64,000 nucleotides of DNA from positions 148,563 to 212,562 of the forward strand of contig JAFEBQ010000012.1 in assembly GCA_018242585.1 (NCBI GenBank), given 5' to 3'. How positions within the stretch are numbered: the stretch's first letter is position 1; every line of letters starts with the position of its first letter. This document shows, one piece after another, positions 33,954 through 47,916 of this stretch. A program made the translations under genes and the position numbers. This stretch comes from Planctomycetota bacterium. GTDB lineage: Bacteria > Planctomycetota > Planctomycetia > Pirellulales > PNKZ01. Below the pieces are notes generated by a model, which was not told the origin of the DNA, ran no database searches, and saw nothing but the letters and a program-made list of their open reading frames with translations.

Positions 33954-34001
33954 AATGTTTTGGTGCTGAGTCGGCGAAAGGTTCTGCAACTCGCGAGCCG
34001 A

Positions 34002-35036
34002 CTACTTCGACAAGATGCCCAGTCGCTTACGCTGGCTATCGGTTAGCAACTTCAGCGCCTGGTCGCGGGCTTGTTCCAAGCGCGAATTGGCTTCGACGAG
34101 CAACTTTGCCCGATTACCGCGGCGATCGACTTCGGCCTCGCGCTTCAGCGCTTCGGCGTCTTCCAGGGCCTTTTCCACCAGCGCTGGCAGTTGCCGCCGT
34201 TGCTCGGTCGTAAACTCCAGGCTGTCGGCCACGCGCGGCAGCGCCAAGGCCCCCATGCCCAGCCGGCGATACAACTCGGCCGAATCGGCCGTGGGCCAGC
34301 GGCTGGCATATTGATTCAACTTGGTCAGCGGGCTCGAGGCTGCGTCGAGAATCGTGTGCAACCTCAACTGCTGATCGACGCGGAGCAATTCGACTGCGTG
34401 ATTAAACAATGTTTGCGCATCGTCCTTCGAGTCGCCGCTGGCCAACGCACCAATTGCCCCTTGCTGGGCGCTGGTCAGATCAAGTATCCGAACCATTTCG
34501 TCATTGAGCAGATTGACCACATCCGGACCTTGTCGCAATCGGGCCCGCAGTTCATCGCTCATGCCGTTGTAGGCCGGCAACGCTTGCTTGTCGCTTTCGT
34601 TTGACTTCGACGGCCCAACATATTGCTGATAGGCGAACACCACGGTCAGCGCCGCCAACATGCCCAGCGTGGCGATCGCCAGCCAGGTTCCCTTGCGACG
34701 GGCCACCGGGATGCGGTTCGAATCAGTGATGTCGAACGTGGTGCCGCGTTCGTCATAGCTCAGCTCGCGAACCAGTTCGAGCCCAATCCGTGTCCGTGAA
34801 CCGTCGCGTCCAAAGCGGGCCACTCGCACTTCCAGCCGGCGGTCGCCGACCTGGAAGCGCAACACCTCGCCGACATTCATCTCGTTCAAGTGATCAGCGG
34901 CCACCAGAAAGCCCGTGGCCGATTCGTTAACGACACTGACCGGAATGGCCTCTTTGCCGCGAACCAGCGTGCCGTTCCGCTGATTCGGTGGCAGTGGCGA
35001 TCGAAAGGCGCTGCGGCGATCGGGTTGGGTAGCCAT
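34002..35036 (-). CDS. PilZ-domain protein with a single TM helix and a C-terminal LTXXQ (Spy/CpxP-like) region
   Basis: I moved the start to ATG 35036. The PilZ motifs are RRSAFR (RxxxR) and NESATG (D/NxSxxG). The TM segment is WLAIATLGMLAALTVVFAY. The C-terminal helical region carries LTSAQQ and LTDSQRKRL. Confidence 0.7.
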   Translation of the reverse strand: MATQPDRRSAFRSPLPPNQRNGTLVRGKEAIPVSVVNESATGFLVAADHLNEMNVGEVLRFQVGDRRLEVRVARFGRDGSRTRIGLELVRELSYDERGTTFDITDSNRIPVARRKGTWLAIATLGMLAALTVVFAYQQYVGPSKSNESDKQALPAYNGMSDELRARLRQGPDVVNLLNDEMVRILDLTSAQQGAIGALASGDSKDDAQTLFNHAVELLRVDQQLRLHTILDAASSPLTKLNQYASRWPTADSAELYRRLGMGALALPRVADSLEFTTEQRRQLPALVEKALEDAEALKREAEVDRRGNRAKLLVEANSRLEQARDQALKLLTDSQRKRLGILSK

Positions 35037-35352
35037 GATCTTCTGCCCGGAGCTCGCGCTTCGGGCCTGAATCAACAAAGAATCCGTGGTCGTTTTCGTC
35101 CACTAGTCGACCTTGCTGTCTTCACGCAAGCTCGACTTTGGACAAACGTAGGTCACCACTGGCGCCGCATTCGACAAACCAGATGGGGTGGTTTGCTTTT
35201 GCCGGCGAGAAACCGCCGCCCGTCGCTAATGTCGGCACAACCGGCATCGGCGGCATGACACTTTGTCGTTGCTCGGTGTCTGGCGACACGCCAGCCTGCA
35301 TTCTACCGACTGTTGGGCGGCAAGCGAGAATGCCCCGCCGCGCCAGGCGCGC

Positions 35353-37344
35353 TTAGCGCCGCGTGCGATCAGCGCCGGCTGCCTCGATATGCAGCGGCAA
35401 ATACCGGTAATAGACCTCGAAGCAGAGCGCCCCCAAGGCCGTCGCATAGACCCGGCCGCCGTGAGCGCCCCAAGTCGGGTCAGGATCCCAACTGCCGGCC
35501 AACGATCCGTCGCGACGCTGCAGGTCGAGCAACCGTCCGGACAGAGCCTGATTCCAACGACCCCAGCGCGAATCTTGCAACTGATACAACCCTAGCGTCG
35601 CGTAGTACCAGTAATAGAAGTTGGCCGGCGACGTGCCCGGCACTTCCTCGATCACAAAGTCAGCCGCCTCGGCCAAGGACGCCGGGCTGTTGTGGGATCC
35701 CAGGAACACGCGGCAGACGAGTCCCTCGGCCGTCATGGTGCGGCTCACCTGTTCGCCGGCGCGATAACTGGCTAGTCCGCCATGCTTGCCGGTCGAAGCG
35801 CTGGCCAGGAATCGCTGCATCAATTCTCGCGTGCCTGCCCCCAATGGTATACCTGCGAGGTCCGCGCTCTTCAGAAACATCAACTGCCAGCCGAACTGGC
35901 TCATATCGCCCACGTCGCCGGCCCGGTAGCGCCAGCCGCCGGTGGCCCTATTCTGGCTAGCCACGGTGTAGGCCACGGCCCGCTGTACCGGCGCGGCCAG
36001 GCGTTTATCGCCGGTCATGGCGTACGCTTCGCTCAAGGCGAGCGCCGCCATGCCGTGACAGTACATGAACTCGTAAACCGCGGCGTGGCCGCCCAACTCG
36101 CCGCGTGGCCCTTGCATCGCGATCAAATAGTTCAGGCCGCGAGCAACTTGCGGCTGGTATTCGCCTTGGGTGTGGGTCTGGCCAGAACCCAGGAACGCCA
36201 GCAAAGCCAATCCCGTGATCCCGGTGTCGGCCTCGGCCCCCGCGCCGCGGCGGTCTTGCCCTAGCAAGTGCGGCTCTTGCCCCGCGCCAAACCGGTCGGC
36301 GTCCCAGCGGCCGTCGGGGCTTTGCGCCTTGGCCAACCAGCGCAATGCGGCGCGAACCGACGCCTCGGTGTCCTCGGAGCCGCCGCTCTGTTCGGCCGTG
36401 GCGGCGCGGTCGGGCGAGAAGCGCAGATCGTAGATGTGCGGCCGGGCGTGGTCCGGTGTGACCGGGCCAGCCGTGACTTTGGGCAGCGACGCCCCAGCCG
36501 CGCCGAGCATCTGTTTGACGAGCGGGTCGTTGGCCAGCGGCGCTGTCGGCTGCTGATTCGACGCGGTCTCAGTGGTCGGCGCTGTGGTCGTTTCAGTCGG
36601 CGCTGGTCCAGGGCGATCGTTCGGATCGATGGCCGGCGGCGGCGCGGCCGCGGTCATGGTGGGACGCAATTCCGGCGTCGTGGGGGCGGGGCCCAGGTCC
36701 GTCGGCGCAGGATCGGGCCGCGTCATCCGCGTGACGTCAGGCGCTGGCTGATCGCTCGCGGCACGCGGCAACTCGGCCGGAGTCGCCGTCGGTAAGTGGG
36801 CCGCCGTTTTTTCGGGCACCGCGGCAACGGCTGTGGCCGGCGGAGCGGGGGTACGTTCCGGAGCTTCTAGCGGCGGCAATGTAACCGTCGGCGCGGAGGT
36901 AGCAATCGCGGCAACCGATTCAACCGCCGGGCGGTGTGCCGCGGCCGGTAGTGCCAGGGCCGCGTCGGTCGTCGTCAGACGTTCGAGCGTTTGCTCCGCC
37001 AGGTGTGGAATCTCTTCGGTCGAGAATTGCTCCCAGGGTGCTTCAAGGTCGGCCCCATCAAGGCCCGATGGCTCTGATGTCCCGTGTAAAGCGACCGTGG
37101 TGTACGAAGTGCCCGTGCCGGGCGGGTTGGTGGCAATGTGAATCGTGGCGGCGTATAGCGCCAACATCAAGTGAACCAGCAGGGACAGGGCCACGCACTT
37201 GTGCAGCGGCTCGGAGTGTCCCCAGCGCGTGAGCATGAGGACGACCAGGCCCGCGGTCACCAGGCCCAAGACGCCCCACAGCGCCAGCCAACCCCAGCCC
37301 AGGTTGACGGCCAGCAAGCTCGAGATGTGCAGCGCGGTCGGCAT
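35353..37344 (-). CDS. Membrane-anchored prenyltransferase/squalene-oxidase-repeat (terpenoid-cyclase-fold) protein with a long Pro/Ala/Thr-rich linker
   Basis: The N-terminus has hydrophobic helices, followed by a P/A/T-rich segment of about 230 aa. The C-terminal repeats are ALRWLAKAQSPDGRWD, LNYLIAMQGPRGELGG, VASQNRATGGWRY and LLDLQRRDGSLAGSWD. The start is 3 nt after the ExbD stop. Confidence 0.8.
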   Translation of the reverse strand: MPTALHISSLLAVNLGWGWLALWGVLGLVTAGLVVLMLTRWGHSEPLHKCVALSLLVHLMLALYAATIHIATNPPGTGTSYTTVALHGTSEPSGLDGADLEAPWEQFSTEEIPHLAEQTLERLTTTDAALALPAAAHRPAVESVAAIATSAPTVTLPPLEAPERTPAPPATAVAAVPEKTAAHLPTATPAELPRAASDQPAPDVTRMTRPDPAPTDLGPAPTTPELRPTMTAAAPPPAIDPNDRPGPAPTETTTAPTTETASNQQPTAPLANDPLVKQMLGAAGASLPKVTAGPVTPDHARPHIYDLRFSPDRAATAEQSGGSEDTEASVRAALRWLAKAQSPDGRWDADRFGAGQEPHLLGQDRRGAGAEADTGITGLALLAFLGSGQTHTQGEYQPQVARGLNYLIAMQGPRGELGGHAAVYEFMYCHGMAALALSEAYAMTGDKRLAAPVQRAVAYTVASQNRATGGWRYRAGDVGDMSQFGWQLMFLKSADLAGIPLGAGTRELMQRFLASASTGKHGGLASYRAGEQVSRTMTAEGLVCRVFLGSHNSPASLAEAADFVIEEVPGTSPANFYYWYYATLGLYQLQDSRWGRWNQALSGRLLDLQRRDGSLAGSWDPDPTWGAHGGRVYATALGALCFEVYYRYLPLHIEAAGADRTRR

Positions 37345-37347
37345 CGG

Positions 37348-37767
37348 TTAACGTCGTTCCTGGCTCAGTCGAACCGAAATCGCCAGCTCGGAAATCCCCG
37401 CCCGCTTGCAGGCGTTGAGCACTTCGGCCACGTTCTGGAACTGTCCCTGGCCATCGCCGCGCACCAACACGCCCAGGTCGTGATATTGCGAACGGGCCGA
37501 AGCCAGCGTCGCCGTCAACTCGTCGAGCGTGACCGGCTGACGATCGATGACGATCTGGCCATCGCGATAGACGTTGACGACTTTCTTTTCGGGGGCCGGC
37601 GACAGCGCGGCATGGTCGCTCACCTGGGGCACGCGCAGCCCGAGCTTCCGCTCCAACTCGGTGAACTTGGTGCCAGCCATAAAGAAGATGATCAGCAGGA
37701 ACATCACGTCGAGCATCGACGTCAGGTTCAAGCCGGGCGCTTCGTCGACATGAGTTTTCAGCGGCAT
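37348..37767 (-). CDS. ExbD/TolR family biopolymer transport protein
   Basis: 139 aa. LNLTSMLDVMFLLIIFFM is the TM helix with the conserved Asp, and the periplasmic domain is of the VLVRGDGQGQFQNVAEVLNACKRAGI type. Confidence 0.85.
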   Translation of the reverse strand: MPLKTHVDEAPGLNLTSMLDVMFLLIIFFMAGTKFTELERKLGLRVPQVSDHAALSPAPEKKVVNVYRDGQIVIDRQPVTLDELTATLASARSQYHDLGVLVRGDGQGQFQNVAEVLNACKRAGISELAISVRLSQERR

Positions 37768-37828
37768 GGTCGTAGGCTACCGACGCGGAGGATGGATATT
37801 CGGTTCAGTGCGGCGCGCGGCAATGTGC

Positions 37829-38668
37829 CTAGGCGGCTTCGCGGCGCGAGCGGCTGCTTTTGGGCGTGGGGGTGCTTTGCAGCCCTTCGGCCGAGATGAT
37901 GTGGACCACGTCTTGTCCCAGCGAGTCGATCGCCATGACCAACTGGTCGACGCGGCTGATGAAGAACAGATAGCAAGCCAGGGCCGGAATCGCCACGCAC
38001 AAACCAGCAGCCGTGGTAATCAGTGCTTCGCTGATACCGCCGGCCAGCAATTCGGGCCGTCCCATCGCGTCGGACGAGGCGATCTCGTTGAACGCGCGGA
38101 TCATGCCAAATACCGTGCCTAGCAGACCCAAAAGCGGGCTGATGGTAGCCACGCCGTTGAATACGCGGACGTATTTGCGCAGCCCGTTGACCGTGCGTTC
38201 CCCTTGATCGAGGACCGCTTGTTCAACTTCCACACCTGGGCGACCCCACTTGCGAATCGCGGCGCCAAACACCTCGGACACCGGGCTGCGGTTTTCCTGA
38301 CACAGTTCCAGGGCTTCGTCCCGGTCGAGCTGCCCTTCGCGCAATTGGTGCAACAGCCGCTTGACGAACGGGCCAGGAATGACCCGCGACCGGCGCAGGG
38401 CCAGTCCTCGTTCGAGCGTGAACACCATCGTCAGAATCGAACAGAAGAAGATCGGAATCATCAGCACGCCGCCGGCCTGGATGATCTCGAGCAGATTCTT
38501 CGATGGAATCGAGCCGCCTGGCGCACCGTCGGCGGCCGCGGCACCCGGCGCCCCGTCGGCCAGACCGATACCCGTGTTGGCCAGCAAGATCGCCAGCGTC
38601 AGCGCCAGCGCCACGCCGTAGCGAATCAGATCCGTGCGGCGGTTGCGCGTTGGTTGTCGTGATTTCAT
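37829..38668 (-). CDS. MotA/TolQ/ExbB family proton-channel protein
   Basis: I moved the start to ATG 38668, which has GAGGAAAG about 8 nt upstream. The C-terminal block ISEALITTAAGLCVAIPALACYLFF is typical of ExbB/TolQ. Confidence 0.85.
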   Translation of the reverse strand: MKSRQPTRNRRTDLIRYGVALALTLAILLANTGIGLADGAPGAAAADGAPGGSIPSKNLLEIIQAGGVLMIPIFFCSILTMVFTLERGLALRRSRVIPGPFVKRLLHQLREGQLDRDEALELCQENRSPVSEVFGAAIRKWGRPGVEVEQAVLDQGERTVNGLRKYVRVFNGVATISPLLGLLGTVFGMIRAFNEIASSDAMGRPELLAGGISEALITTAAGLCVAIPALACYLFFISRVDQLVMAIDSLGQDVVHIISAEGLQSTPTPKSSRSRREAA

Positions 38669-38719
38669 CGCAAGGCTTTCCTCGTTTTCAAACAGACGAT
38701 GCAATTGGAGTAAAAGCGT

Positions 38720-41700
38720 TTAACGCTTCTCGCCGGGTTGCTGGCTCGATTGCAGCAGCCGGGCCGCATCGGCCTGGTAAGGTGTGTTCGGGTAGTGTTT
38801 CAACAGGCGGACATAGCTTTCGACAGCCTGGGCCGATTGGCCCAGAGCGGTGTAACATTTACCGGCTTCGAGCAGGGCGGCAGCCTGCCAGTTGGGGTAG
38901 GCGTAGAGGATTTCCACGCGCAGGTATTCGCGAAGCGCTGACTCGTAGTTCTTCTGATGAAAATAAGTCTCGCCGATCATCCATTGGGCCATGGCCGCCG
39001 TCTCGGTTCGCGCGCCCTGATCGGAACGGACTACTTGCTGAAAGGCGGTTCGGGCTTCGTCGAACTGGGCTGCCGCCGCCAGGCAGCGACCGCGCACGTA
39101 ATCCAACTCGTAACGAGGCTCGAAGTCCGGGCGCTCGGCCAGCAAACGATCGGCCAGCTCGCGGGCGTCGTCCCAACGCTTTTCCTGGGCGGCGATTTGC
39201 GCGCGACGCAGCGCCGTCATGTCGGCCGACGTATCGTGGGCCGGCTCTTTGGCCAAGGTGTCGAAGGCTGACGCGGCAGCCTTGATATCTCCCCGGCGGT
39301 ACGAACGCTCGGCCAGCCAGAATCGGGCTAGACGTGCCAGTTGTACATCGGCAGTCTGAGCGGCTAGTTGTTCGAGTGGCTCGGTTGCCTCGTCCCAGCG
39401 GCCAGCACGAATGGCGCACTGTACCAGGAGGTACTGCGCGTGACGGCGAACCGACTCGCTGGGGTTCGCGCCCAGCAACTCGCCCAGCAGTTGCGAGCTG
39501 CGCACTTCATCGCCGGCCTGCAAGGCGTGCTCAGCCAGGCGGTAGACCGCATCGTGCCAGTATTGGCTGTCGGGAAACTTGACGTGCAGTCGTTCGAGCG
39601 CGCTGTCGGCCCCCTTGGCATCTCCCGCCTGGCGACGCGCCCAGGCCAGGCCATACAGCGCCGTGTCATGCTGCGCGGCGGCCGCCGACAGATTCAGCAA
39701 TTGCTCATAGAGTCGCGCCGCGCGCTCGCTGTGTTCGAGTTGTTCTTCCAGTCGCGCCGCCGCCAGCAAGGCCGCCGGAACCCGCGGACTCGCCGGATCA
39801 CGAATCGGCACGTTCAGGTAATGCTCAATCGCGGCCGCATGTTGCGTTTGCTGCTGGGCAATGTAGCCGAGCATGAACTCGGCTTCGGCCGCCTGAGCCG
39901 CCGAACCAAGCTTGGCCGCTTCGATGAACAACGGCCGGGCTGCGTCAAGCTTGCCGGCGTGATAATGCTGCCAAGCCTGGCCCAATAGCCCCTTGCTTCG
40001 CGCACTCGGCGCGCGCTCGGGAGCGGCCAGCCAGGCGAGCCAGGTCGCGGCCTTGTCGGTTTGGTTTGTTTGTTGAGCCGCTTCGGCCAGCGCCTCGGCG
40101 GCCGGCGTCAGGCGCGCGCTTTCGACTTGCATTGCCTCCAGCGACTTCCACACCCGCTCGGCCTCGTCAAGCCGGCCGGCGTAAGCCAGCGCGACACAAC
40201 ACTGGATATCGATCGTCGCGCGGTCGGGAGTGTTGATCGCCCAGTCGGCGTCGAGCAGCTTGTGGCAAGCCGCCAGTTGTGCCAGAGCCTCGTCCCAGCG
40301 TCCCAGGTCCAAACAAGCCCCGGCCCACAGATTCAACGCCTGGGCCTGCAGGGCGCCGGCCGAATGACCGGCGACGTCGGCCGCGATTTCGCGCGCGGCC
40401 GAGGGATCGGATGGGCGCCAGATGTGGGCGGCCAAAAGCTGCCTCGCCGGCCACTGTGACACCGGCAGCGAGGGTGACTCGCCGATCTCCTGCAACCGAG
40501 CCAATGCTTCGTCGGGCCGGTGCCGTTGAATCAGGATTTGCACGTCGAGTTGATCGGCAATCGCCGTCAGGTTCGGATCGTTAACGGCGGCGCGCAATTC
40601 CTCGGCCAGCAGTTTTGTCGCGGCAAAGTCGCCGCGGCCGAGGGCCAGGTTCACGCGAGCCAGTGCCGCCGCGCAGGCTTCGGCGCTATTGGGCCAGTCG
40701 CGAGTGACCCGGGCAAAGTGCTTGTCGGCGGCGTCACGCTGGCCAGCGGCCAATAAGGCCTGGGCCGCGCCGTGGCACAAAGCCGGCGCCAAACGATGTG
40801 GCGTATGCTTTTCCAATGCGGCCAGCCAGGTGGCTGCCGCGGCCTCGGACTCCCCTTCAGCCAGCAGGATCGAACCGAGCCAGTATTGTGCGTCGACCGA
40901 AAGCGTGGACGTACCGGGAACCTCGGCCAGCGTCTGACGCGCGGTGTGGTACTTGTGCAACTGGTACAGCGATTGGGCCTGACCCAGCCGGGCGCGATCG
41001 ACGCTCGAGCTGCGCGCGAAGCGTTGCACCACGTCGGCGTAAGCGCGCTCGGCCGCGGCAAAGTCCCCCGCCTGGTAAACCATGTCGGCCTGCATCACCG
41101 CGGCGTCGTCGATTAAGTGGGACGGACCATGCCTGGCAATGTCGGCGATGAACGTCCGAGCCTCGGCCAAATGCTGCTCTTGCGATGGCTGCTCGCGTAC
41201 AAAGACTCGCGCCAGTCCCAAACGAGCGTCAGGTGCCAGCGCCCCCTTGGGAAAGCGCTCAATGGCCTGGCGATAATTTTGCTCGGCGTCCGTTAGCCGG
41301 TCGAGTTCGAGATTGGCGTCTCCCAGATAGACCAGGGCGTAAGCCGCCAGCGGGTCGTCATTCCAGCGTGCCAGCCAGGCCGACAGATCGCGTTCGGCGG
41401 CCGACCAGCGGCGGGCAAAGTAGTTCGATTCGCCGGCGCGGAACAACGCCTTGCGGGCAATCACATCGCTTTTGGTCGCGGCGGCCAACTCGTGAAACAG
41501 CTCGATCGCTTCGTCCCAGCGCCGTAGTTGCACCAAGGACTCGCCCGTGAAGAACCGGGCGTCATCGGCCAGCCGGTGCGCGGCGAACTGTTGGCTGAAG
41601 TCTTGAAACTCGGTCCAGGCCAACTGCCAGCGATGGGCCTCGTAGTGCCCGGCCGCCACGCGGTATTGATCCTCGGCCACGTCGGCGCGGGCCAGCGCGG

Positions 41701-41761
41701 CCAACAGCCAGCCGAGAATCGCGATCGCGATCGTGCGATGGTTGGCAGGCATGATCGGCAA
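38720..41761 (-). CDS. Large secreted TPR-repeat protein (1013 aa)
   Basis: Signal peptide MPIMPANHRTIAIAILGWLLAALARA, then TPR-like A/L/W/Y-rich repeats throughout. Confidence 0.8.
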   Translation of the reverse strand: MPIMPANHRTIAIAILGWLLAALARADVAEDQYRVAAGHYEAHRWQLAWTEFQDFSQQFAAHRLADDARFFTGESLVQLRRWDEAIELFHELAAATKSDVIARKALFRAGESNYFARRWSAAERDLSAWLARWNDDPLAAYALVYLGDANLELDRLTDAEQNYRQAIERFPKGALAPDARLGLARVFVREQPSQEQHLAEARTFIADIARHGPSHLIDDAAVMQADMVYQAGDFAAAERAYADVVQRFARSSSVDRARLGQAQSLYQLHKYHTARQTLAEVPGTSTLSVDAQYWLGSILLAEGESEAAAATWLAALEKHTPHRLAPALCHGAAQALLAAGQRDAADKHFARVTRDWPNSAEACAAALARVNLALGRGDFAATKLLAEELRAAVNDPNLTAIADQLDVQILIQRHRPDEALARLQEIGESPSLPVSQWPARQLLAAHIWRPSDPSAAREIAADVAGHSAGALQAQALNLWAGACLDLGRWDEALAQLAACHKLLDADWAINTPDRATIDIQCCVALAYAGRLDEAERVWKSLEAMQVESARLTPAAEALAEAAQQTNQTDKAATWLAWLAAPERAPSARSKGLLGQAWQHYHAGKLDAARPLFIEAAKLGSAAQAAEAEFMLGYIAQQQTQHAAAIEHYLNVPIRDPASPRVPAALLAAARLEEQLEHSERAARLYEQLLNLSAAAAQHDTALYGLAWARRQAGDAKGADSALERLHVKFPDSQYWHDAVYRLAEHALQAGDEVRSSQLLGELLGANPSESVRRHAQYLLVQCAIRAGRWDEATEPLEQLAAQTADVQLARLARFWLAERSYRRGDIKAAASAFDTLAKEPAHDTSADMTALRRAQIAAQEKRWDDARELADRLLAERPDFEPRYELDYVRGRCLAAAAQFDEARTAFQQVVRSDQGARTETAAMAQWMIGETYFHQKNYESALREYLRVEILYAYPNWQAAALLEAGKCYTALGQSAQAVESYVRLLKHYPNTPYQADAARLLQSSQQPGEKR

Positions 41762-41873
41762 ACATCCGGTGATTAAACGACGAAACCATGCTCCACATTT
41801 CGCGGAGCATGGTATCGGTCGAAAGCTTTCGGCAAAAGGCCGAAGCGCGGCCCGCTAGCAACGAATTGCTGGC

Positions 41874-42461
41874 TTACATGCCGGCTCCCGGGCCTTCGTC
41901 GACGTTCCCCACCATGTGCAGGTGGTTGTGGTCGATGTAGATGACTTCGCGAGAATCTTCGTCGACGTGGGTGTTGGGCAAGGGCCAGCCCACGCGGGTG
42001 ACTTGCGTGTAGTAGATGGTGCACTTGTAGTGTGCGTGGTGCTGCTGGGCCGGCCCGATCAGCGGGTACACCCGTGGCGGATCGATATAGTCGGCGATCG
42101 GCTCGATGGTCATGCGCACGTTGTTACGCTGGATTTCAAACAACAGCGGCGTGCCGCCTTGCAGCGGCTGGGCCTTTTCCAAAGCCCGCATCACTTCGTC
42201 CGGCGACGGCGGATCGAGCGCCACGGCAGGACCGCCAGCGGTGATCGGCCCCAGGATGGGCACGCGCTCGTAGCGTTCCTTGTTCCAAAATTTGTCTTCC
42301 GGAACCTTCTGCCAGTACGGGCTAACCGGGATCGGAAAGGGGAAATGGACGACCGGCGACGCCCCCAGGGTGTTGAACGGCCAGGTGCAACCACTCGAGG
42401 TGGTCAACGTAGCCGCCGCCAAGAGCAGCAAGGCGAAGGTGAATCGTTTCGACATGGGCAA
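41874..42461 (-). CDS. Lipoprotein, unknown function
   Basis: Lipobox LTTSSGC after MPMSKRFTFALLLLAAAT. 195 aa. Confidence 0.65.
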   Translation of the reverse strand: MPMSKRFTFALLLLAAATLTTSSGCTWPFNTLGASPVVHFPFPIPVSPYWQKVPEDKFWNKERYERVPILGPITAGGPAVALDPPSPDEVMRALEKAQPLQGGTPLLFEIQRNNVRMTIEPIADYIDPPRVYPLIGPAQQHHAHYKCTIYYTQVTRVGWPLPNTHVDEDSREVIYIDHNHLHMVGNVDEGPGAGM

Positions 42462-42631: not shown

Positions 42632-42670
42632 AAAAAAGCCTCGGCCGATCTGGTGATTCGGCCGAGGCTT
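42632..42670 (-). terminator. Intrinsic terminator of the BON-domain gene
   Basis: On the minus strand, a 12-bp perfect stem (42659-42670 with 42636-47) encloses an 11-nt loop and runs into the complement of the A-run 42632-42637 (a U-run in the transcript). It starts 29 nt after the stop. Confidence 0.7.
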
Positions 42671-42698: not shown

Positions 42699-43745
42699 TT
42701 AGTGATGGCAGTGCTTGTCTTTGAAGTCCAGGAACCACCACCCGTCGTCCCATTCCAGCGTGACCTTGCGCCAGCCGAGCGGCACTTGCGGATACGGGTA
42801 GAACGGTCCGATGTACGGCCACGCGGCGGCCGAGTACTGGTTCGGATAAGTCACCGCGGCGTAGTTCGGGTACGCGGCATACGACGGCCAGGCGTAGTTC
42901 GGCATGTGGGCCTGGTCGGACATGGCGCCGGCGCCACCCATCGAGCCCGCGCCACCGTAGGCGCCGCCACCCATCCCGCCGCCAGCACCACCATTGCAGG
43001 TGGCACAGGGAACTGGACCGCCGCCCACGTAACCGTGGTGGCGAATGCCGGTCTGCTGGACGGGAACTTGCTGAGCCCCTTGCGGCACGCGACGAATCGC
43101 GTTGGTCGCCGGCGTGCTCACGGCTTGAATGTTGCTAGCGGTCTGTTGCACCTGGCCGTTCGCACGGCCTTGGCCGGCCGGTCCACGAGTGACCGGCGCG
43201 GTGGCAAAGCGGCGCGAGTTGGTCGGAGCAAACTGGGCGTTACCCGAGCCGGCCAACGGGTCGCGAGGCTCACTGTAGTTGCTTTCGGCGGCAGCCATGG
43301 TTGGCTGGCCAGCGGTGCGAGCACGCGATTCCTGGTGAGCAACGATCTGGCCAGTGGCTGGTTCGCTGATCGGCTGGGGCTGCTTGTTGTTCAGGCCCAG
43401 GAAACTCATCGTCGATTGCTTCAGCGAGCGCGGCTGGCTGGGTTGGCCAGCTTCAGCCACATTCTTGGTCGGCCGAATTTCCAAGGCCGGCACCACTTGC
43501 TTGACGTAGGGCAGTTCGCTGGCCAGCGAGACGGCCTGCTGCATTTGTTCCTGGCTGGCCACGCGGCCGCTGATCCAGGCCGTGCCGTCTTCGTATTGCA
43601 CTCCAATGCTGTAATCCGAGAGCCGGCCACTGGAGCGCAGCGCTTGTGCAATACGCTGAGCTGTTTCCGGATCGGCTGCCATCGCACCACTTGGGGCGAG
43701 GCCGGCCAGAGCGCTGAGCGCCATGCCGAGGAACAAGCGTCGCAT
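42699..43745 (-). CDS. Secreted BON-domain protein with a Gly-rich and aromatic-rich C-terminus
   Basis: I moved the start to ATG 43745, which has AAGGAGG upstream and gives the signal peptide MRRLFLGMALSALAGLAPSGAMA. The BON-like block is IAQALRSSGRLSDYSIGVQYEDGTAWISGRVASQEQMQQAVSLASELPYVKQVV. Confidence 0.75.
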   Translation of the reverse strand: MRRLFLGMALSALAGLAPSGAMAADPETAQRIAQALRSSGRLSDYSIGVQYEDGTAWISGRVASQEQMQQAVSLASELPYVKQVVPALEIRPTKNVAEAGQPSQPRSLKQSTMSFLGLNNKQPQPISEPATGQIVAHQESRARTAGQPTMAAAESNYSEPRDPLAGSGNAQFAPTNSRRFATAPVTRGPAGQGRANGQVQQTASNIQAVSTPATNAIRRVPQGAQQVPVQQTGIRHHGYVGGGPVPCATCNGGAGGGMGGGAYGGAGSMGGAGAMSDQAHMPNYAWPSYAAYPNYAAVTYPNQYSAAAWPYIGPFYPYPQVPLGWRKVTLEWDDGWWFLDFKDKHCHH

Positions 43746-44400
43746 AACCCCCTCCTTGAACGAACGGTTAGTCGCCAAAATTGTCGAGCAACGCGGCCCG
43801 GACTCTCCGGGCTGCCGCCGGCGATTGGATTCAAATCGCGCGAGCGGCGACGGGTGTTCCCGGCGCTGGCCGTGTTGTTGCCTGTCTCGCCCTATGCGGT
43901 GATCCATGCGCCGTAACTCGGCGCGGACTATCGAGGCTGCGCGTCTGGCGCGGTGGCCGACGATCGACCGTAATCACTCGCCCTGCCATTGCAGACCCGT
44001 GCGGCCTGGCCCGGCATTCAATTCGCCGCGCGATCGAGTGCTCGCCGCGCGTCGTGTTATGCCGAACTTACCGCCTGTACGGGCTAATAATGGTTTTCGG
44101 TCGCGGCTTGGACGTTTGGGAATATTTTTTTCGGATTTACCGAGTCAGCGGGTTTTACCGTGCATGCTCGGTGCGTGTCGGTGCGCAAGAGACGACGGGG
44201 ATTGAAGTTGGCTACGAAACGCCGCGCCGCATGAAACGGCAAACAGAGACGCTAGCAACCCGATGAGCGGGTCAAGAGGCAACGTGCTAGCGGCGTTAAA
44301 CTAAACGCAAGTTTCCACGCCGCGTGCTGGCGCGCCGAGATGAAACGCGCATCAACGCCCGGCGATCAACGAAACACCGGGCGGTATCTCCGCCGTGATC

Positions 44401-44685
44401 TCAGCTCACGAATTGCTTCTGCTGCGAAAAGTCCCACGTGGCGGTGAGGACCATGACGCTCAGGGTGGCGCCACACGAAATGCAGGCCCCCGGCCCGAAC
44501 GACAGTGACAGCACCGTCAACGTCGCGACCAGGCTCAGGCAGAGGAAAAACAGCCGCTGGGCGAAGCCCTGGACCGATGAGCCTTCGCTGACGCGGGCCC
44601 ACCAACCGGCGAATAGGCCGGCGACTTGGATCAGGACAAAGCCGTACAAGTACGTCTGCGCGGAGAAGGTCGGCATGCGAATCAT
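44401..44685 (-). CDS. Small membrane protein (94 aa, about 3 TM helices), hypothetical
   Basis: The in-frame ATG at 44685 has GGAG 5 nt upstream. The upstream part of track ORF 44401..45102 looks non-coding (Arg/Cys-rich, no structure). Confidence 0.45.
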   Translation of the reverse strand: MIRMPTFSAQTYLYGFVLIQVAGLFAGWWARVSEGSSVQGFAQRLFFLCLSLVATLTVLSLSFGPGACISCGATLSVMVLTATWDFSQQKQFVS

Positions 44686-44996
44686 TCGCTCCGAGAGGCA
44701 GGCGGCGCGCCAGCGACCAGAACGGCCACCGAAACGCCATTTGAGGCGGGGACGACATCCATGTCGTCGTTCGCCGCCACAATAATGCAATGACTGTGCC
44801 AATGTCACTGCTGGCATGGCGCGGCGAGCAATGCCCAGCGCGCCTCGGTCGCTGAATGAACCGCGATTTCGCGAGCGCGCCAACTTGAGCGATTTGCGAA
44901 AAGTTTTTTGTTCCGCGAGCCGCGCCTTGTAAGAGTTACAAGAAATGACGCGGGCCGTTGCGTGAACTTTGCAAAACGCGCCGAGCGTAAATGACA

Positions 44997-45030
44997 ACGA
45001 TCCGCGAGGCGTTACCGCCTCGCGGATCGT
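44997..45030 (-). terminator. Strong hairpin downstream of the thioredoxin-like gene (terminator-like)
   Basis: A 15-bp perfect stem acgatccgcgaggcg / cgcctcgcggatcgt has the loop ttac and lies 35 nt after the stop. The trailing U-run on the minus strand is only partial. Confidence 0.4.
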
Positions 45031-45064
45031 GTGCTCCCCCTGGGCAAATCGGTAACCTGCGGAT

Positions 45065-46999
45065 TTACCGCAGCAATGCCCCAACTTCCTTGTCGAGTTC
45101 ACCGGCCGTCGCGGCCCGATTGGCGACCCGACCTTGCTTGTCGATGACCATGATGCTGGGCAGCGTCAAAATGCCCAAGGCATTGGCCAACGGGGCGTCC
45201 AAGCCCCCATCGTCGTAGATCTGCACCCACGCCAGCTTGTTCTTCTTCAGAAAGTCCTCGAGCGCCTTGCGATTGTCGTCCAGGCTGATGCCGACGATCG
45301 CGACATTCTTGCCATACTTGGCTTGCAATTGCTTGAGCGTTTCCAAGTCCCCCAGGCACGTCGGGCTGTTGCTGGCCCAATAGTGCAGGACGATGACCTT
45401 GTCGCGGAACTGGCCCAGGTTGACCGCTTGGCCCGTCAAGTTTTTGCCAGCCAGTTGGATCACCTTGCCGACCGAGTCAAGCCGCGCGATGGCGCCGGTC
45501 GCCTTTTTGGCGGGCTGGCTTTCGGGAAAGCCGGCCACGAGCTGGCCATAGACCTTCTTGGCGTCGTCTTCCTGGCCCGCGAACTCCTTGGCCACAGCCA
45601 ATTGCAACAACGCATCGGCCGTGTCGGCGACCTTGGGATACTTGCTGATAAAGGCTTGCAGGCCATCGAGCCAGCGCTGCTGCGTTTTGACGAAGTCCAT
45701 CTTCGGATCGCTGACGCGGACGCCGTAATCGGCCTGCAAAAAGCGGTATTCGACAAAGGCGGCCAGTTCGGCGTCGGCCGGGTTGGCCTCGAGCTTCTTG
45801 GCCGTCGCTTCCAGAATGGCGACTCCTTCGGGGAACTCGCCCATCTGGGCCGCGGCGCTGCAGGTGTCGGCCAGTTGGCGGACCCACAACGCCCGAGTTT
45901 CACCCGTGGTCTGACGAATCAGGTCGTCGAGGAGCTTGGCTCGCTGGGCGTGCAGCGCCGGCTTTTTGGCGGCCACGGCGGCGCCAAGTTCCTGATCGAG
46001 CTTTTCGACCTTGGCCATCAGATCGGTGACTTCGGCTGGCTGGCTACCGTCGGTGCCGCCAGGTCCAGCCGGCATCTCGGGGCGTGGCGTCGCCTCGCTC
46101 GAAAAGAAAAAGCCCGAGCCGGCGGCCAGTTCGTTCGAGTCGCTGGGGGCCGGCGGCGCATCGATCAAACGCCAGCTATCTCCCACGCGGACCAAGGTGC
46201 CGACCATGATTTGTTCGTGCTTGTCGTCCAGTTGGACCATGGCCGCCACGTTCTCGTAAGCGACGACGTCCTTGGTCGCGCCAGCAGTGCCAGCAGGAAC
46301 CAGCCCCGGCAGCGTGCCGCCAAAGTGCGTCCAGCGCAGCTTGTTGCCCGCCGAGGCGAAACGCGTGGCCGATTCTTTCTTGGAACTGACAAAGGTGCGG
46401 AACTTGTCGCCGGCCGCTTGGACCTGCTTCTTCAGCGTTTCGGATTGTTCCGTACCAAGCCCGAGCGAGGCGATTTCGTCTTCGGTGATCAGCACGCGAT
46501 TGAAGCGGGCCGAGTCCCGATCGCCGATGGCGCGGACCAACTCGGCCGAGACTTCTTCGGCCGAAATCAGCTTCCAGCTATCGATCTTGCCGTCTTCGTT
46601 CGCGTCGATCCCCCAGCGGGTGCCGGCCGAATTGAGCCAGCGCAGTTGGTCGGCCTTGCCGTTGAAATTCAGATCGATATCGCGGTAGACCTCGATGCCG
46701 TTCAGGTAATAGCACCACTGATCGACGACGTTGTCGTTGTTCGTATCGACAAAGCGGCGGAGTATCCGCGCTTCGGCGTCGCGCACCACCCACCCCGTGT
46801 GGCCGTTGATCTGCTCGGCTTTGATCGTGCATTTGGCCGCGACATCGGCCGCGGGGCGATCGTATTCCACATCGCGCTGCGTCGGCTGAAGCTGCAAGGC
46901 ATCGGTGGCCGTCGGATTGGCGGCCCAGACCGAGTCGGCGTTCGAAGCGGCGGCCGCGACCAGGGCGGCGCGCAACCAGCGTTGACGATTGGGACTCAT
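45065..46999 (-). CDS. Secreted protein with EF-hand-like Asp-rich repeats and a C-terminal TlpA/thioredoxin-like domain (active site SxxC)
   Basis: I moved the start to ATG 46999 (MSPNRQRWLRAALVAAAA). The DTNNDNVVD and DANEDGKID motifs are EF-hand-like. The C-terminal block VIVLHYWASNSPTCLGDLETLKQL...TLPSIMVIDKQGRV is a TlpA-like fold with SPTC in place of CxxC. Confidence 0.75.
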   Translation of the reverse strand: MSPNRQRWLRAALVAAAASNADSVWAANPTATDALQLQPTQRDVEYDRPAADVAAKCTIKAEQINGHTGWVVRDAEARILRRFVDTNNDNVVDQWCYYLNGIEVYRDIDLNFNGKADQLRWLNSAGTRWGIDANEDGKIDSWKLISAEEVSAELVRAIGDRDSARFNRVLITEDEIASLGLGTEQSETLKKQVQAAGDKFRTFVSSKKESATRFASAGNKLRWTHFGGTLPGLVPAGTAGATKDVVAYENVAAMVQLDDKHEQIMVGTLVRVGDSWRLIDAPPAPSDSNELAAGSGFFFSSEATPRPEMPAGPGGTDGSQPAEVTDLMAKVEKLDQELGAAVAAKKPALHAQRAKLLDDLIRQTTGETRALWVRQLADTCSAAAQMGEFPEGVAILEATAKKLEANPADAELAAFVEYRFLQADYGVRVSDPKMDFVKTQQRWLDGLQAFISKYPKVADTADALLQLAVAKEFAGQEDDAKKVYGQLVAGFPESQPAKKATGAIARLDSVGKVIQLAGKNLTGQAVNLGQFRDKVIVLHYWASNSPTCLGDLETLKQLQAKYGKNVAIVGISLDDNRKALEDFLKKNKLAWVQIYDDGGLDAPLANALGILTLPSIMVIDKQGRVANRAATAGELDKEVGALLR

Positions 47000-47457
47000 C
47001 GGTCGTGTTACCTCGCTAGGAAGGACAGATCGAGTCGGGCCGGACGTTTCCGTTTCGAGCGCGCGAGCGCCCGACGATACGTGGCCGGCGACGGGTTGGT
47101 TCAAGGGTTTTGTGCGTGTACCATTTGCGCACGCCACTGCTGGCTTGGGCGAACGCCGGCGGTAGCGGTGCTGGCGTTCGCAGGCCGAGCGCGTCTGGCG
47201 TGTAGGTGGAGCTAATCTTCGGAAGGCCGGGCTTGGCAACATAAGCCGTTTGTGCCGGTTTTTCCGGTCAGGCGACGTTTACCGCCGCTGGCAAGGCTAT
47301 AGGTATTTGCAATCCCTGCTCGCTTTCCTTCGCCACCTGCAAACTGGGCTGACGCCGAACGACTTCCTCCGCCTGCCCGCCTCCCTCCGTGCAACCCTCC
47401 GCGTCTCCGTGCCACCGTGGCAAAACATTCCCGGTTTTCACCGTAAACCAGGGGCAT

Positions 47458-47710: not shown

Positions 47711-47843
47711 TTTTCTGGCGTCGATCCGCGGAGGCGGAGCGACGCGACCGGCAGTAATCGTTCAAACACCGCGATCGTTCAACCGCCGCTCCTGTGCGGT
47801 GCTCGTTCCCAGGCGAGCGAAGGATCGATTCACGACCCACCTT

Positions 47844-47916
<73 letters not shown>

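What the first reader, a model, noticed from the sequence alone, without database searches (positions are those of the whole stretch)
35353..42461. ExbB-ExbD module whose TonB slot is filled by a TM / Pro-rich linker / terpenoid-cyclase-fold protein, co-transcribed with a 1013-aa TPR protein and a lipoprotein
The gene order on the minus strand is lipoprotein, giant TPR protein, ExbB, ExbD and a 663-aa protein. Spacers are short, and only 3 nt separate ExbD from the last gene. The upstream BON gene is set apart by a canonical terminator at 42632-42670.

The last protein copies the TonB layout of an N-terminal membrane anchor followed by a Pro/Ala/Thr-rich spacer of about 230 aa. Its C-terminal domain, however, is a prenyltransferase/squalene-oxidase-repeat (alpha/alpha-toroid) domain and not the TonB C-terminal domain. 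No TonB-like gene and no TonB-dependent receptor is present in the window.

Inference: this is a proton-motive-force-driven envelope machine with a different 'business end'. Its function is unknown.
Basis: partly seen in the sequence, partly recalled or inferred. Interest (0 to 1): 0.55.

Follow-up and report, generated by a model that had tools for sequence, protein, structure and literature searches.

The report
ExbBD motor with toroid-headed TonB-like partner
In a Pirellulales planctomycete, a proton-driven ExbB-ExbD membrane motor is always followed by a protein built like TonB/TolA (membrane anchor with the conserved Ser-x3-His, long Pro-rich stalk) but ending in an alpha/alpha-barrel head, so it is probably an undescribed variant of the machines that carry inner-membrane energy to the outer envelope.

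Summary
The five minus-strand genes, their short spacers (112, 15, 61 and 3 nt) and the strong terminator after the BON gene are all present.

The 663-aa protein has:
- a two-helix membrane hairpin;
- a 229-aa linker (P 18%, A 19%, T 16%);
- a confidently modelled single (alpha/alpha)6 barrel that matches SQHop_cyclase_C only through its QW repeats.

It lacks DxDD, DDxxD and CGEQ motifs, so it is not a recognisable cyclase, class I synthase or thioester domain.

The family is large (821 clusters at 50% identity; at least 592 species genomes) and, among the 80 loci inspected, confined to Pirellulales. ExbB-ExbD lies directly upstream in essentially every locus (ExbD 71/72, ExbB 63/63). The TPR protein (39/48), lipoprotein (31/48) and BON protein (24/45) are frequent but optional.

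The second helix carries Ser-x3-His (His 120/120, Ser 113/120), oriented as in TonB/TolA. A D-box-like strand pattern follows about 25 residues later, the TonB spacing.

Best reading: a TolA/TonB-analogous force transducer with a new head. The published precedent is the vWA-headed transducers (2025). I found no description of this toroid-headed family. The target, the function and the physical coupling are untested.

The parts
42699..43907 (-). BON-domain (OsmY-like) secreted protein. The likely start is Met at 43745 (MRRLFLGMALS...). The C-terminal residues 331-401 are very strongly conserved. A frequent upstream neighbour, probably a separate transcript.
   Evidence: PF04972 BON, 46.5 bits. 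Upstream in 24/45 loci. C-terminal 331-401 is 77-88% identical in many loci. Start checked.
42632..42670 (-). Intrinsic terminator between the BON gene and the lipoprotein gene.
   Evidence: Perfect GC-rich hairpin plus U-run, dG -34.9 kcal/mol, z -7.7.
41874..42461 (-). Lipoprotein, 195 aa, with lipobox Cys25 and invariant His-rich motifs: H141, H142, H144 in GPAQxHHAHYKC and H178, H180, H182 in YIDHNHxH. Orphan family. Candidate envelope partner with a possible metal site.
   Evidence: More than 2500 homologues, no Pfam or NCBIfam match. Invariant columns in alignment A2. Model pLDDT 72, no PDB fold match. Adjacent in 31/48 loci, but also found alone elsewhere.
38720..41761 (-). Secreted 1013-aa TPR protein made of about seven YbgF/CpoB-type TPR modules. 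Probably a periplasmic scaffold.
   Evidence: TIGR02795 tol_pal_ybgF, 240 bits in 7 stretches; PF13174 TPR_6, 110 bits. Present in 39/48 loci.
37829..38704 (-). ExbB/TolQ-type proton-channel subunit, 291 aa with an N-terminal extension. Keeps GT(198)VFGM and SE(226)ALIT(230)TAAG, which align with TolQ T145/E173/T178.
   Evidence: PF01618, 96.6 bits. Best NCBIfam match is tolQ at 85.7 bits, below its cut-off. PDB TolQ 49 bits, ExbB 41 bits, with alignment. Motif positions.
37348..37767 (-). ExbD/TolR-type subunit, 139 aa. Membrane Asp20 aligns with E. coli ExbD Asp25. The C-terminal strand LAISVRL is present.
   Evidence: PF02472, 93.1 bits. PDB ExbD alignments. Position.
35353..37344 (-). The 663-aa candidate force transducer: membrane hairpin, Pro/Ala/Thr linker and (alpha/alpha)6 head.
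37231..37296 (-). TM1 (residues 17-38) of the hairpin. It is followed by the conserved positively charged cytoplasmic loop TRWG(Q/H)SxPLxKC (residues 39-50).
   Evidence: Helix 3-38 in the model. T39, R40, W41, G42, K49 and C50 are conserved in at least 103/120 sequences. Coordinates.
37135..37206 (-). TM2 (residues 47-70), running from cytoplasm to periplasm like the TonB/TolA helix. It carries S54-x3-H58 (nt 37171-37185).
   Evidence: H58 in 120/120, S54 in 113/120, Y64 in 112/120. Coordinates.
37081..37104 (-). Position of the D-box / motor-box-like strand (residues 81-88). The pattern is clear at family level and degenerate in this copy (YTTVALHG, 5 of 7 positions).
   Evidence: The pattern Phi-z-Phi-z-Phi-Phi-z occurs 18-38 residues after the invariant His. 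It is perfect in 33% of sequences against 5.7% of control linker windows, and matches at least 6/7 in 92.5% against 46%. The modal offset is 25 residues.
36445..37131 (-). Disordered Pro/Ala/Thr-rich linker (residues 72-300), including the conserved PWEQF motif at residues 103-107 (nt 37024-37038).
   Evidence: Composition. pLDDT below 50. PWExF conservation.
35395..36444 (-). Single (alpha/alpha)6 barrel head (residues about 301-650) with QW-type repeats. It has DVGD at residues 477-480 and no DxDD.
   Evidence: pLDDT above 90 with 12 helices. Foldseek gives only weak hits to single-domain barrels. All 33/33 family members match PF13243. Motif counts.

Best explanation
The conserved core ExbB-ExbD-663 encodes a proton-motive-force machine of the Ton/Tol type. 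In it, the 663-aa protein plays the role of TonB or TolA.

Inferred mechanism:
1. ExbB (a pentamer) and ExbD (a dimer) form the ion-driven motor in the cytoplasmic membrane.
2. The 663-aa protein docks on the motor through its second membrane helix (Ser54-x3-His58), and possibly through the conserved cytoplasmic loop TRWGxSxPLxKC.
3. Its strand-forming segment just outside the membrane is captured by the periplasmic ExbD dimer.
4. The roughly 200-300-residue Pro/Ala/Thr stalk spans the wide planctomycetal periplasm.
5. The (alpha/alpha)6 head binds a ligand or partner at the outer envelope, and the motor pulls on or repositions it.

The head has lost the cyclase acid motif, so it is most likely a binding module and not a terpene cyclase.

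I favour an envelope-maintenance (Tol-like) job over nutrient import. The frequently co-located proteins are a YbgF/CpoB-type TPR protein, a His-rich lipoprotein and a BON protein, and no TonB-dependent receptor is present.

What is shown: gene content, conserved synteny, conserved motifs, and the fold of the head.
What is inferred: physical coupling to ExbBD, the direction of force, the target and the physiological role.
For: Synteny:
- ExbD is directly upstream in 71/72 loci and ExbB in 63/63, from different Pirellulales species.
- Independently annotated loci L081 and L083 show the same order.
- The gap between the ExbD stop and the nearest possible start is 10 nt or less, or an overlap, in 46/74 loci. 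The mode is 3 nt, as in the window (biased towards short gaps by construction).

Anchor:
- His58 is invariant (120/120) and Ser54 is present in 113/120. The loop is positively charged, so TM2 has the TonB orientation.
- A D-box-like pattern is enriched at a modal 25 residues after the His. In E. coli TonB, His20 to Ile45 is also 25 residues. The TonB sequence is from memory, and its 43-54 segment is confirmed by PMC10907165.

Motor:
- ExbD Asp20 and the ExbB Thr/Glu/Thr residues are conserved.

Stalk and head:
- The linker is disordered and Pro/Ala/Thr-rich.
- The head is a confident (alpha/alpha)6 barrel without DxDD, DDxxD or CGEQ.

Precedent:
- TolA/TonB-like transducers with a non-TonB (vWA) head sit downstream of TPR, tolQ-like and tolR-like genes in the PVC group. 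They are modelled to bind the motor through the conserved His (PMC12204202 section 8).

Tol-like hints:
- ExbB scores best against TolQ models.
- The TPR protein matches the YbgF/CpoB model in seven stretches.
- No TonB-dependent receptor was found in the ORFs scanned.
Against: - No complex prediction or experiment links the 663-aa protein to ExbBD.
- The N-terminal profile finds neither TonB nor TolA among solved structures. hhalign against E. coli TonB 1-105 gives a probability of 1%. The TolA hit of the full-length profile lies in the low-complexity linker.
- Only the Ser and His of the SHLS motif are kept.
- The anchor has two helices, unlike TonB and TolA.
- The window's own D-box-like segment matches only 5 of 7 positions.
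- The N-terminal module was not seen on any other head among the top 150 of 821 hits, so modularity is not demonstrated.
- No partner for the head has been identified. The TPR protein, lipoprotein and BON protein are each missing from many loci, and the lipoprotein also occurs alone.
- No TolB or Pal is in the cluster.
- Invariant polar residues at the starts of the presumed inner helices (D373, C429-H430, D480, E540, R631) leave room for an enzymatic or metal-binding head.
Confidence: 0.6

Rival explanations
1. The 663-aa protein is an independent membrane-anchored periplasmic enzyme or binding protein that acts on a glycan, an isoprenoid lipid or a metal. It merely shares an operon with ExbBD. 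The motor would then serve a conventional TonB or TolA encoded elsewhere, or the two would be linked only by regulation.
For: - The head is a fold used by many enzymes: weak Foldseek hits to GH76 mannanases, cellobiose 2-epimerases, AprG and single-domain terpene cyclases. Pec_lyase matches occur in 22/33 members.
- There is a set of invariant polar and aromatic residues: D373, C429-H430, GGWRY, D480, E540, YYWYY, R631.
- There is no significant sequence homology of the N-terminus to TonB or TolA.
Against: - A bystander would not be expected to keep near-universal adjacency with tight or overlapping spacing to exbD across an order.
- It would also not be expected to keep an invariant His four residues after a conserved Ser in a helix of TonB orientation, or a D-box-like strand at the TonB distance.
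- The known catalytic motifs DxDD, DDxxD and CGEQ are absent.
- A 200-300-residue Pro-rich stalk is hard to explain for an ordinary membrane-anchored enzyme.
Confidence: 0.2
2. The machine is a Ton-like importer rather than a Tol-like envelope stabiliser. The head engages an outer-membrane or surface component, possibly the His-rich lipoprotein acting as a metal or ligand receptor, to energise uptake in organisms that have few or no TonB-dependent receptors.
For: - The lipoprotein has invariant HHAHYKC and DHNHxH motifs, which suggest metal binding.
- ExbD scores best against solved ExbD, not TolR.
- No TonB-dependent receptor is nearby, so a different receptor would be needed.
Against: - The lipoprotein is absent from the locus in 17/48 cases and sits alone elsewhere in others.
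- No outer-membrane beta-barrel gene is in the conserved cluster.
- ExbB and the TPR protein lean towards Tol/CpoB models.
- Metal binding by the lipoprotein is only inferred.
Confidence: 0.15
3. The cluster is a mobile or defence-type MotAB-like system (Zorya-like), not a housekeeping envelope machine.
For: Zorya systems also use MotAB/ExbBD-like 5:2 motors with unusual partners (general knowledge).
Against: - None of the six proteins has a PADLOC match.
- The cluster sits in a conserved chromosomal neighbourhood (Redoxin, BON, lipoprotein, TPR, ExbBD, 663, tatA, tatA) across Pirellulales.
- Base composition is unremarkable here.
Confidence: 0.02

Closest known systems
[quoted passage not shown]
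   Same: - A membrane helix with the conserved His, a disordered or Pro-rich linker with a motor box, and a globular head unrelated to the TonB/TolA C-terminal domain.
[quoted passage not shown]
- Present in Planctomycetes.
- Function unknown.
   Different: - The head here is an (alpha/alpha)6 barrel, not a vWA fold.
- There is one ExbD gene, not a heterologous tolR pair.
- The anchor is a two-helix hairpin.
- The linker is roughly two to three times longer (193-315 residues against about 100).
- That paper does not mention squalene, prenyl, cyclase or toroid.
TonB-ExbB-ExbD (Ton system)
   Same: - ExbB and ExbD have the essential channel residues.
- The partner gene lies directly after exbD, as in exbB-exbD-tonB operons.
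- Ser-x3-His sits in a helix of the same orientation.
- A D-box-like strand lies about 25 residues after the His.
- The spacer is Pro-rich.
   Different: - There is no TonB_C domain.
- No TonB-dependent receptor is nearby.
- An extra N-terminal membrane helix is present.
- The Leu and Ser of the SHLS motif are not kept.
- No detectable sequence homology exists.
TolQ-TolR-TolA with CpoB/YbgF (Tol-Pal system)
   Same: - Gene order is motor A, motor B, transducer.
- ExbB scores best against TolQ.
- The neighbouring TPR protein is built of YbgF/CpoB-type repeats.
- Lipoprotein and envelope proteins are in the neighbourhood.
   Different: - There is no TolA domain III, no TolB beta-propeller and no Pal (OmpA-like) lipoprotein.
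- The TPR protein is about four times the size of CpoB.
- All Tol equivalog models score below their cut-offs.
Class II terpene cyclases, both squalene-hopene cyclase and the single-domain enzymes (PDB 8PAJ, 8PAK, MstE 6SBB), and the wider prenyltransferase / thioester-domain alpha/alpha-toroid superfamily
   Same: - (alpha/alpha)6 barrel with QW-type repeats.
- PF13243 matches in 33/33 members.
- Weak Foldseek matches (E about 1e-4, TM about 0.6).
   Different: - One barrel only, 10-18% identity.
- DxDD is replaced by DxGD.
- No DDxxD or CGEQ.
- Predicted periplasmic location on a long stalk.
- 31-33 bits against cut-offs of 323-431 bits for the cyclase models.
Agl-Glt gliding machinery of Myxococcus (the TolQR-like AglRQS motor with TonB-like GltG/GltJ) and other 5:2 motors with alternative periplasmic partners (GldLM/PorLM)
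   Same: A TolQR/ExbBD-type motor re-used to move a periplasm-spanning partner for a task other than siderophore import (general knowledge).
   Different: No Glt or Gld homologues were seen in the cluster. The partner's head fold differs. Not tested further.

Membership tests
TonB family | C-terminal TonB_C domain (PF03544) that binds the Ton box of receptors | tested here: not met
   No TonB_C match in Pfam or NCBIfam for the window protein or for 33 family members. The C-terminus is an (alpha/alpha)6 barrel.
TonB family | N-terminal membrane helix with the SHLS motif (S-x3-H-x6-L-x3-S) | tested here: inconclusive
   S54 (113/120) and H58 (120/120) are conserved in a helix of TonB orientation. 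The Leu and Ser positions are A65 and a variable residue. No significant profile match to TonB or TolA.
TonB family | D-box / motor-box strand (Phi-z-Phi-z-Phi-Phi-z) just after the membrane helix | tested here: met
   Met at family level: perfect in 33% of sequences against 5.7% of controls, at least 6/7 in 92.5% against 46%, modal offset of 25 residues from the His. The window copy matches only 5/7.
TonB family | Encoded with, and dependent on, ExbB-ExbD | tested here: met
   Adjacency in 71/72 and 63/63 loci. Dependence itself is not testable here.
TonB family | TonB-dependent outer-membrane receptors as targets | tested here: not met
   No Plug or TonB_dep_Rec domain in the 26 ORFs scanned. 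The rest of the genome could not be searched.
TolA / Tol-Pal system | TolA domain III, plus TolB and Pal in the cluster | tested here: not met
   No TolA, TolB or OmpA-like Pal matches among the cluster proteins. The lipoprotein has no known domain.
TolA / Tol-Pal system | TolQ and TolR equivalogs | tested here: not met
   tolQ scores 85.7 bits against a cut-off of 221. tolR scores 52.8 bits against 127.3. They are generic ExbB/ExbD-family members.
TolA / Tol-Pal system | CpoB/YbgF TPR protein | tested here: inconclusive
   TIGR02795 scores 240 bits, above its cut-off of 90.1, but as seven repeated stretches in a 1013-aa protein. This shows the repeat type, not orthology.
Squalene-hopene / class II terpene cyclases | DxDD general-acid motif | tested here: not met
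   No DxDD in the window protein. It occurs in only 16/120 homologues, without a check that the position is shared. DxGD[TMS]S occurs in 67/120 homologues and as DVGD at residues 477-480 in the window.
Squalene-hopene / class II terpene cyclases | Full-length match to the cyclase models and the two-barrel architecture | tested here: not met
   TIGR01507 scores 31.5 bits against 431. TIGR01787 scores 32.9 bits against 322.7, over about 90 residues. The model has a single barrel.
Alpha/alpha-toroid superfamily (fold level) | (alpha/alpha)6 barrel with QW-type repeats | tested here: met
   Twelve helices at pLDDT above 90. Foldseek hits are to (alpha/alpha)6 barrels only. The Qxxx[GD]xW motif is in 120/120 sequences. 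PF13243 matches 33/33.
Thioester-containing (alpha-2-macroglobulin TED) domains | CGEQ thioester motif | tested here: not met
   0/120. Only a marginal profile hit to TEP1, E = 0.006.
Protein prenyltransferase beta subunits | Zn site (Asp/Cys/His) at the barrel mouth | not testable with these tools
Invariant D373, C429-H430 and D480 exist, but their geometry is unknown. PF00432 matches only 2/33 members.
vWA-headed force transducers (PMC12204202) | vWA C-terminal domain | tested here: not met
   No vWA match. The head is an (alpha/alpha)6 barrel.
vWA-headed force transducers (PMC12204202) | Operon of TPR, tolQ-like and tolR-like genes followed by a transducer with a conserved His in the membrane helix | tested here: met
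   The same layout with a single ExbD. His58 is invariant.
Anti-phage MotAB-like systems (Zorya) | Matches to ZorA-D models | tested here: not met
   No PADLOC hits for six proteins.

The most novel reading that the evidence does not exclude
The toroid-headed transducer is the planctomycete-specific energy coupler for a process that has no known machinery in these bacteria. One candidate is PMF-driven handling of isoprenoid lipids (hopanoid-like) or glycans between the membranes through the cyclase-like cavity. Another is energising the uptake of macromolecules or metals across an outer membrane that lacks TonB-dependent receptors, with the His-rich lipoprotein and the BON protein as outer-envelope partners. 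In that case it would be a third functional branch beside Ton and Tol, not a mere head swap.
Probability: 0.12. Interest if true: 0.85.

Novelty: new variant of a known kind. Interest (0 to 1): 0.6.

Why it matters
Ton and Tol are the two textbook ways in which diderm bacteria deliver inner-membrane energy to the outer envelope. Planctomycetes have only a reduced Tol-Pal set (PMC8871954), an unusually wide periplasm, and no characterised energy coupler.

This protein family is order-wide and strictly linked to ExbBD. It keeps the motor-docking signatures of TonB/TolA but presents a different and very strongly conserved head. It therefore gives a concrete, testable candidate for that coupler.

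It also supports the recent idea that 5:2 motors drive a modular set of periplasm-spanning transducers with interchangeable heads.

The family includes cultured strains such as Bremerella cremea, so genetics and pull-downs are feasible.

Tried and rejected
1. Homology of the anchor to TonB or TolA. The full-length profile hit TolA (E = 5e-5), but across the low-complexity linker. An N-terminus-only profile found nothing relevant in the PDB. hhalign against E. coli TonB gave a probability of 1%. The claim of detectable homology is rejected, and only motif-level resemblance remains.
2. Whether the anchor module occurs on other heads. A profile search of 1.84 billion representatives gave 821 hits. 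The top 150 were all the same family or fragments of it. There is no evidence for modular reuse.
4. The fold of the lipoprotein. The model has moderate confidence and has no PDB match, and there are no weak Pfam hits.
5. The defence-system reading. There are no PADLOC hits.
6. The terpene cyclase, class I synthase and thioester readings of the head. The motifs are absent.
7. Sigma-70 promoter scan. Nothing was found, which is uninformative for this phylum.
8. Literature searches for a prior description. Only the vWA precedent turned up.
9. ORF clustering of the loci was noisy because of shadow ORFs in high-GC DNA. It was used only to spot the downstream tatA genes.

Full report
**1. What is there**

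The window comes from a Planctomycetes MAG. The 663-aa protein is identical to the NCBI entry with locus tag JSS27_06940.

Five ORFs lie head to tail on the minus strand:
- a 195-aa lipoprotein (41874-42461);
- a 1013-aa TPR protein (38720-41761);
- ExbB (37829-38704);
- ExbD (37348-37767);
- a 663-aa protein (35353-37344).

The spacers are 112, 15, 61 and 3 nt. Pfam confirms MotA_ExbB (96.6 bits), ExbD (93.1 bits) and many TPR families. For the last protein there is only a borderline SQHop_cyclase_C match over residues 322-416 (26.5 bits against a cut-off of 26.1). The lipoprotein matches nothing.

The BON gene upstream ends in a textbook terminator, with dG -34.9 kcal/mol, z -7.7 and a U-run.

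Twenty-six of the larger ORFs of the window were scanned, including all those of at least 450 aa. None has a TonB_C, Plug or TonB-dependent receptor domain. There is no second ExbB, ExbD or 663-aa copy in the window.

**2. Anatomy of the 663-aa protein**

The AlphaFold2 model was built with 33 homologues. It has two long N-terminal helices (3-38 and 45-67), a disordered stretch (71-262, pLDDT below 50), and a confident all-helical domain from about 270 to 650 with twelve main helices, i.e. an (alpha/alpha)6 barrel.

The linker, residues 72-300, is 18% Pro, 19% Ala and 16% Thr. In 62 homologues its length ranges from 193 to 315 residues.

The loop between the two helices is TRWG(Q/H)SxPLxKC. 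It is conserved and positively charged, so it should be cytoplasmic. That places the short N-terminus and everything after helix 2 in the periplasm, and gives helix 2 the same in-to-out orientation as the single helix of TonB/TolA (topology by the positive-inside rule, an inference).

Foldseek against the PDB finds only weak matches: E between 4e-5 and 1e-3, TM about 0.6 on the target, 10-18% identity. The hits are single-domain (alpha/alpha)6 barrels of diverse function: AprG, the single-domain cyclases 8PAJ and 8PAK, MstE, GH76 mannanases and cellobiose 2-epimerases.

Sequence signals tie the head to the terpene-cyclase / prenyltransferase repeat superfamily:
- All 33 members tested match SQHop_cyclase_C, and 22 also match Pec_lyase.
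- A profile aligns to squalene-hopene cyclase residues 511-590 through QW-type repeats.

The catalytic signatures are missing. There is no DxDD in the window copy (DVGD at 477-480), and no DDxxD or CGEQ in any of 120 homologues. The cyclase equivalog models score 31-33 bits against cut-offs of 323-431.

The domain is a single barrel and is not a recognisable cyclase.

**3. Is it tied to ExbBD?**

The 80 loci kept are all Planctomycetota. The named ones are Pirellulales: Bremerella cremea, Mariniblastus, Anatilimnocola and Thermoguttaceae.

Neighbours were mapped by tblastn. Denominators are the loci with enough flanking DNA to test each neighbour:

| Neighbour | Position | Loci |
|---|---|---|
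| ExbD | immediately upstream, same strand | 71/72 |
| ExbB | upstream, same strand | 63/63 |
| TPR protein | upstream | 39/48 |
| Lipoprotein | upstream | 31/48 |
| BON protein | upstream | 24/45 |

Three arrangements occur: lipoprotein-TPR-ExbBD-663, lipoprotein-ExbBD-663 and TPR-ExbBD-663. The invariant core is therefore ExbB-ExbD-663.

The gap between the ExbD stop and the nearest possible start of the next gene is 10 nt or less, or an overlap, in 46/74 loci. The mode is 3 nt (the estimate is biased towards short gaps by construction).

Two contigs with independent gene calls show Redoxin, BON, a 189-195-aa protein, TPR, MotA_ExbB, ExbD (3-nt gap), a 679- or 723-aa protein, TatA and TatA.

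**4. Is the N-terminus TonB-like in more than layout?**

In 120 homologues, His58 is invariant and Ser54 is present in 113. Together they give the Ser-x3-His half of the TonB/TolA SHLS motif near the cytoplasmic end of helix 2. The Leu and Ser half is not kept.

TonB has a D-box or motor box just outside the membrane. Its pattern is Phi-z-Phi-z-Phi-Phi-z (Phi hydrophobic, z hydrophilic) flanked by Pro, and it is bound by the ExbD periplasmic dimer (PMC10907165). TolA proteins have the same feature (PMC12204202).

In this family the aligned positions 82-88 read [IVFM][RNHQ][VLI][SAT][LIA][VI][DE], after a conserved Pro. I searched the 20 residues that begin 18 residues after the invariant His, and compared them with other 20-residue windows of the same linkers:

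| Pattern match | After the His | Control windows |
|---|---|---|
| Perfect (7/7) | 33% | 5.7% |
| At least 6/7 | 92.5% | 46% |

The modal offset from the His is 25 residues. This equals His20 to Ile45 in E. coli TonB. The TonB sequence is from memory, and its 43-54 segment is confirmed.

The window's own copy is degenerate (YTTVALH, 5/7). A further conserved PWExF motif follows at 103-107, and its role is unknown.

The motor subunits look functional. ExbD Asp20 aligns with ExbD Asp25. ExbB keeps GTVFGM and SEALITTAAG, which align with TolQ T145, E173 and T178.

There is a limit to this resemblance. The N-terminal profile has no significant match to TonB or TolA (hhalign probability 1%). The TolA hit of the full-length profile is a low-complexity artefact. 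The resemblance is therefore one of motifs and geometry, not demonstrable homology.

A profile search of 1.84 billion cluster representatives found 821 proteins with this anchor. The top 150 are all this family or fragments of it.

**5. Known context**

Williams-Jones et al. [quoted passage not shown] AF3 predicts that they bind the motor at the TonB/TolA site. Their function is unknown.

That paper does not mention a cyclase-like or toroid head. Full-text searches found no description of the present family.

Planctomycetes are reported to have only a largely reduced Tol-Pal set (PMC8871954).

The present system is therefore best filed as a new variant of an established and recently broadened kind. 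It has the same operon logic and docking signatures, but a new head fold, a hairpin anchor and a much longer stalk.

**6. Mechanism and function**

The most likely mechanism is that ExbB5-ExbD2 converts proton flow into movement. The 663-aa protein is held at the motor by helix 2 and by strand capture on ExbD. Its Pro/Ala/Thr stalk reaches across the wide periplasm. The barrel head binds something at the outer envelope that is then pulled or released. I give this a confidence of 0.6.

Which process is served is open.

Hints towards a Tol-like envelope role:
- ExbB scores better against TolQ than against ExbB models (85.7 against 54.6 bits in NCBIfam; 49 against 41 bits in the PDB search).
- The TPR protein consists of about seven YbgF/CpoB-type modules (TIGR02795, 240 bits in seven stretches).
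- The neighbours are a lipoprotein and a BON (OsmY-like) protein.
- No TonB-dependent receptor was found in the ORFs scanned.

Hints towards an import or ligand-handling role:
- The lipoprotein has invariant HHAHYKC and DHNHxH motifs.
- Invariant polar residues sit at the N-terminal ends of the six presumed inner helices of the head: D373, C429-H430, D480, E540, Y577-Y581 and R631. In (alpha/alpha)6 proteins these ends usually line the functional mouth of the barrel.

A bystander-enzyme reading cannot be excluded (0.2). It does not explain the invariant His, the D-box-like strand, the stalk or the strict adjacency. A defence-system reading is rejected.

**7. Verdict**

The conserved unit is ExbB-ExbD-663. 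The TPR protein, lipoprotein and BON protein are frequent accessories.
- The head is a non-cyclase (alpha/alpha)6 barrel.
- The anchor carries TonB/TolA-like docking motifs.
- Novelty: new variant of a known kind.
- Interest: 0.6. The family is large, order-wide and uncharacterised, includes cultured strains, and is a testable candidate for the missing envelope energy coupler of Pirellulales. The conceptual precedent was published in 2025, and nothing here shows physical coupling or function.

Noticed in passing
window 41874-42461 (-): The 195-aa lipoprotein belongs to an orphan family of more than 2500 proteins, all about 190-195 aa. It is far better conserved (62-81% identity) than the 663-aa protein. 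It has invariant His-rich motifs: H141, H142, H144 in GPAQxHHAHYKC and H178, H180, H182 in YIDHNHxH. In the model these lie on neighbouring beta-strands, which looks like a metal site. There is no PDB fold match.
   Followed up: partly
L081 12329-12904; L083 16868-17480; most other loci; absent from window 34000-35350: In most related genomes two tandem tatA/E genes follow the 663-aa gene on the same strand: at least one copy in 43/68 loci and two copies in 38/68. In this window they are missing. An unrelated 358-aa gene (34002-35078) follows instead, and it has no counterpart in any of the 80 loci.
   Followed up: partly
window 42699-43907 (-): The BON protein has a long Gly/Ala/Met/Gln-rich low-complexity middle. 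Its C-terminal segment of about 70 residues (residues 331-401, ...YPYPQVPLGWRKVTLEWDDGWWFLDFKDKHCHH) is 77-88% identical across genomes, much more conserved than its BON domain.
   Followed up: partly
window 45065-47242 (-) and 44401-45102 (-): A 725-aa Redoxin/AhpC-TSA thioredoxin-like protein with a TPR_6 repeat, together with the C-terminal hydrophobic part of a 233-aa ORF, lies upstream of the BON gene. Both recur in the same position in at least 13 related loci and in L081 and L083. The conserved neighbourhood is therefore larger than the five genes.
   Followed up: partly
window 47637-47917 (+): tRNA-Ile(GAT) and tRNA-Ala(TGC) lie 134 nt apart. This pair normally sits in the 16S-23S spacer, but no rRNA is detected anywhere in the window.
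   Followed up: no
window 10640-12889 (-): A 749-aa ORF combines a urea-transporter domain (PF03253, residues 21-303) with a Peptidase_M23 domain (residues 422-484). This is an unusual fusion.
   Followed up: no
window 17709-20537 (+): A 942-aa MMPL-family transporter with a sterol-sensing-domain-like second half lies about 15 kb from the cluster and is not part of the conserved synteny. It is the type of protein that includes hopanoid exporters (HpnN). It is of interest only if the toroid head handles isoprenoid lipids.
   Followed up: no
window 21753-25187 (-): A 1144-aa protein has an N-terminal FHA / YscD-cytoplasmic-type domain and no other recognised domain.
   Followed up: no
window about 7780-10520: This is a low-GC patch (0.55 against about 0.63). 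Its candidate ORFs have GC3 of only 0.51-0.62, so they are probably non-coding or foreign. It surrounds a 3-keto-disaccharide-hydrolase-domain gene (8552-9250).
   Followed up: no
L081 13228-22040: In one related genome a prophage-like block (integrase, capsid, TerL, S78 protease) is inserted right after the two tatA genes.
   Followed up: no
window 37024-37038 (-), residues 103-107 of the 663-aa protein: A conserved PWE(Q/R)F motif sits in the otherwise variable linker, about 20 residues after the D-box-like strand (P in 98/120, W in 95/119). In the model it forms a one-turn helix. Nothing explains it.
   Followed up: no
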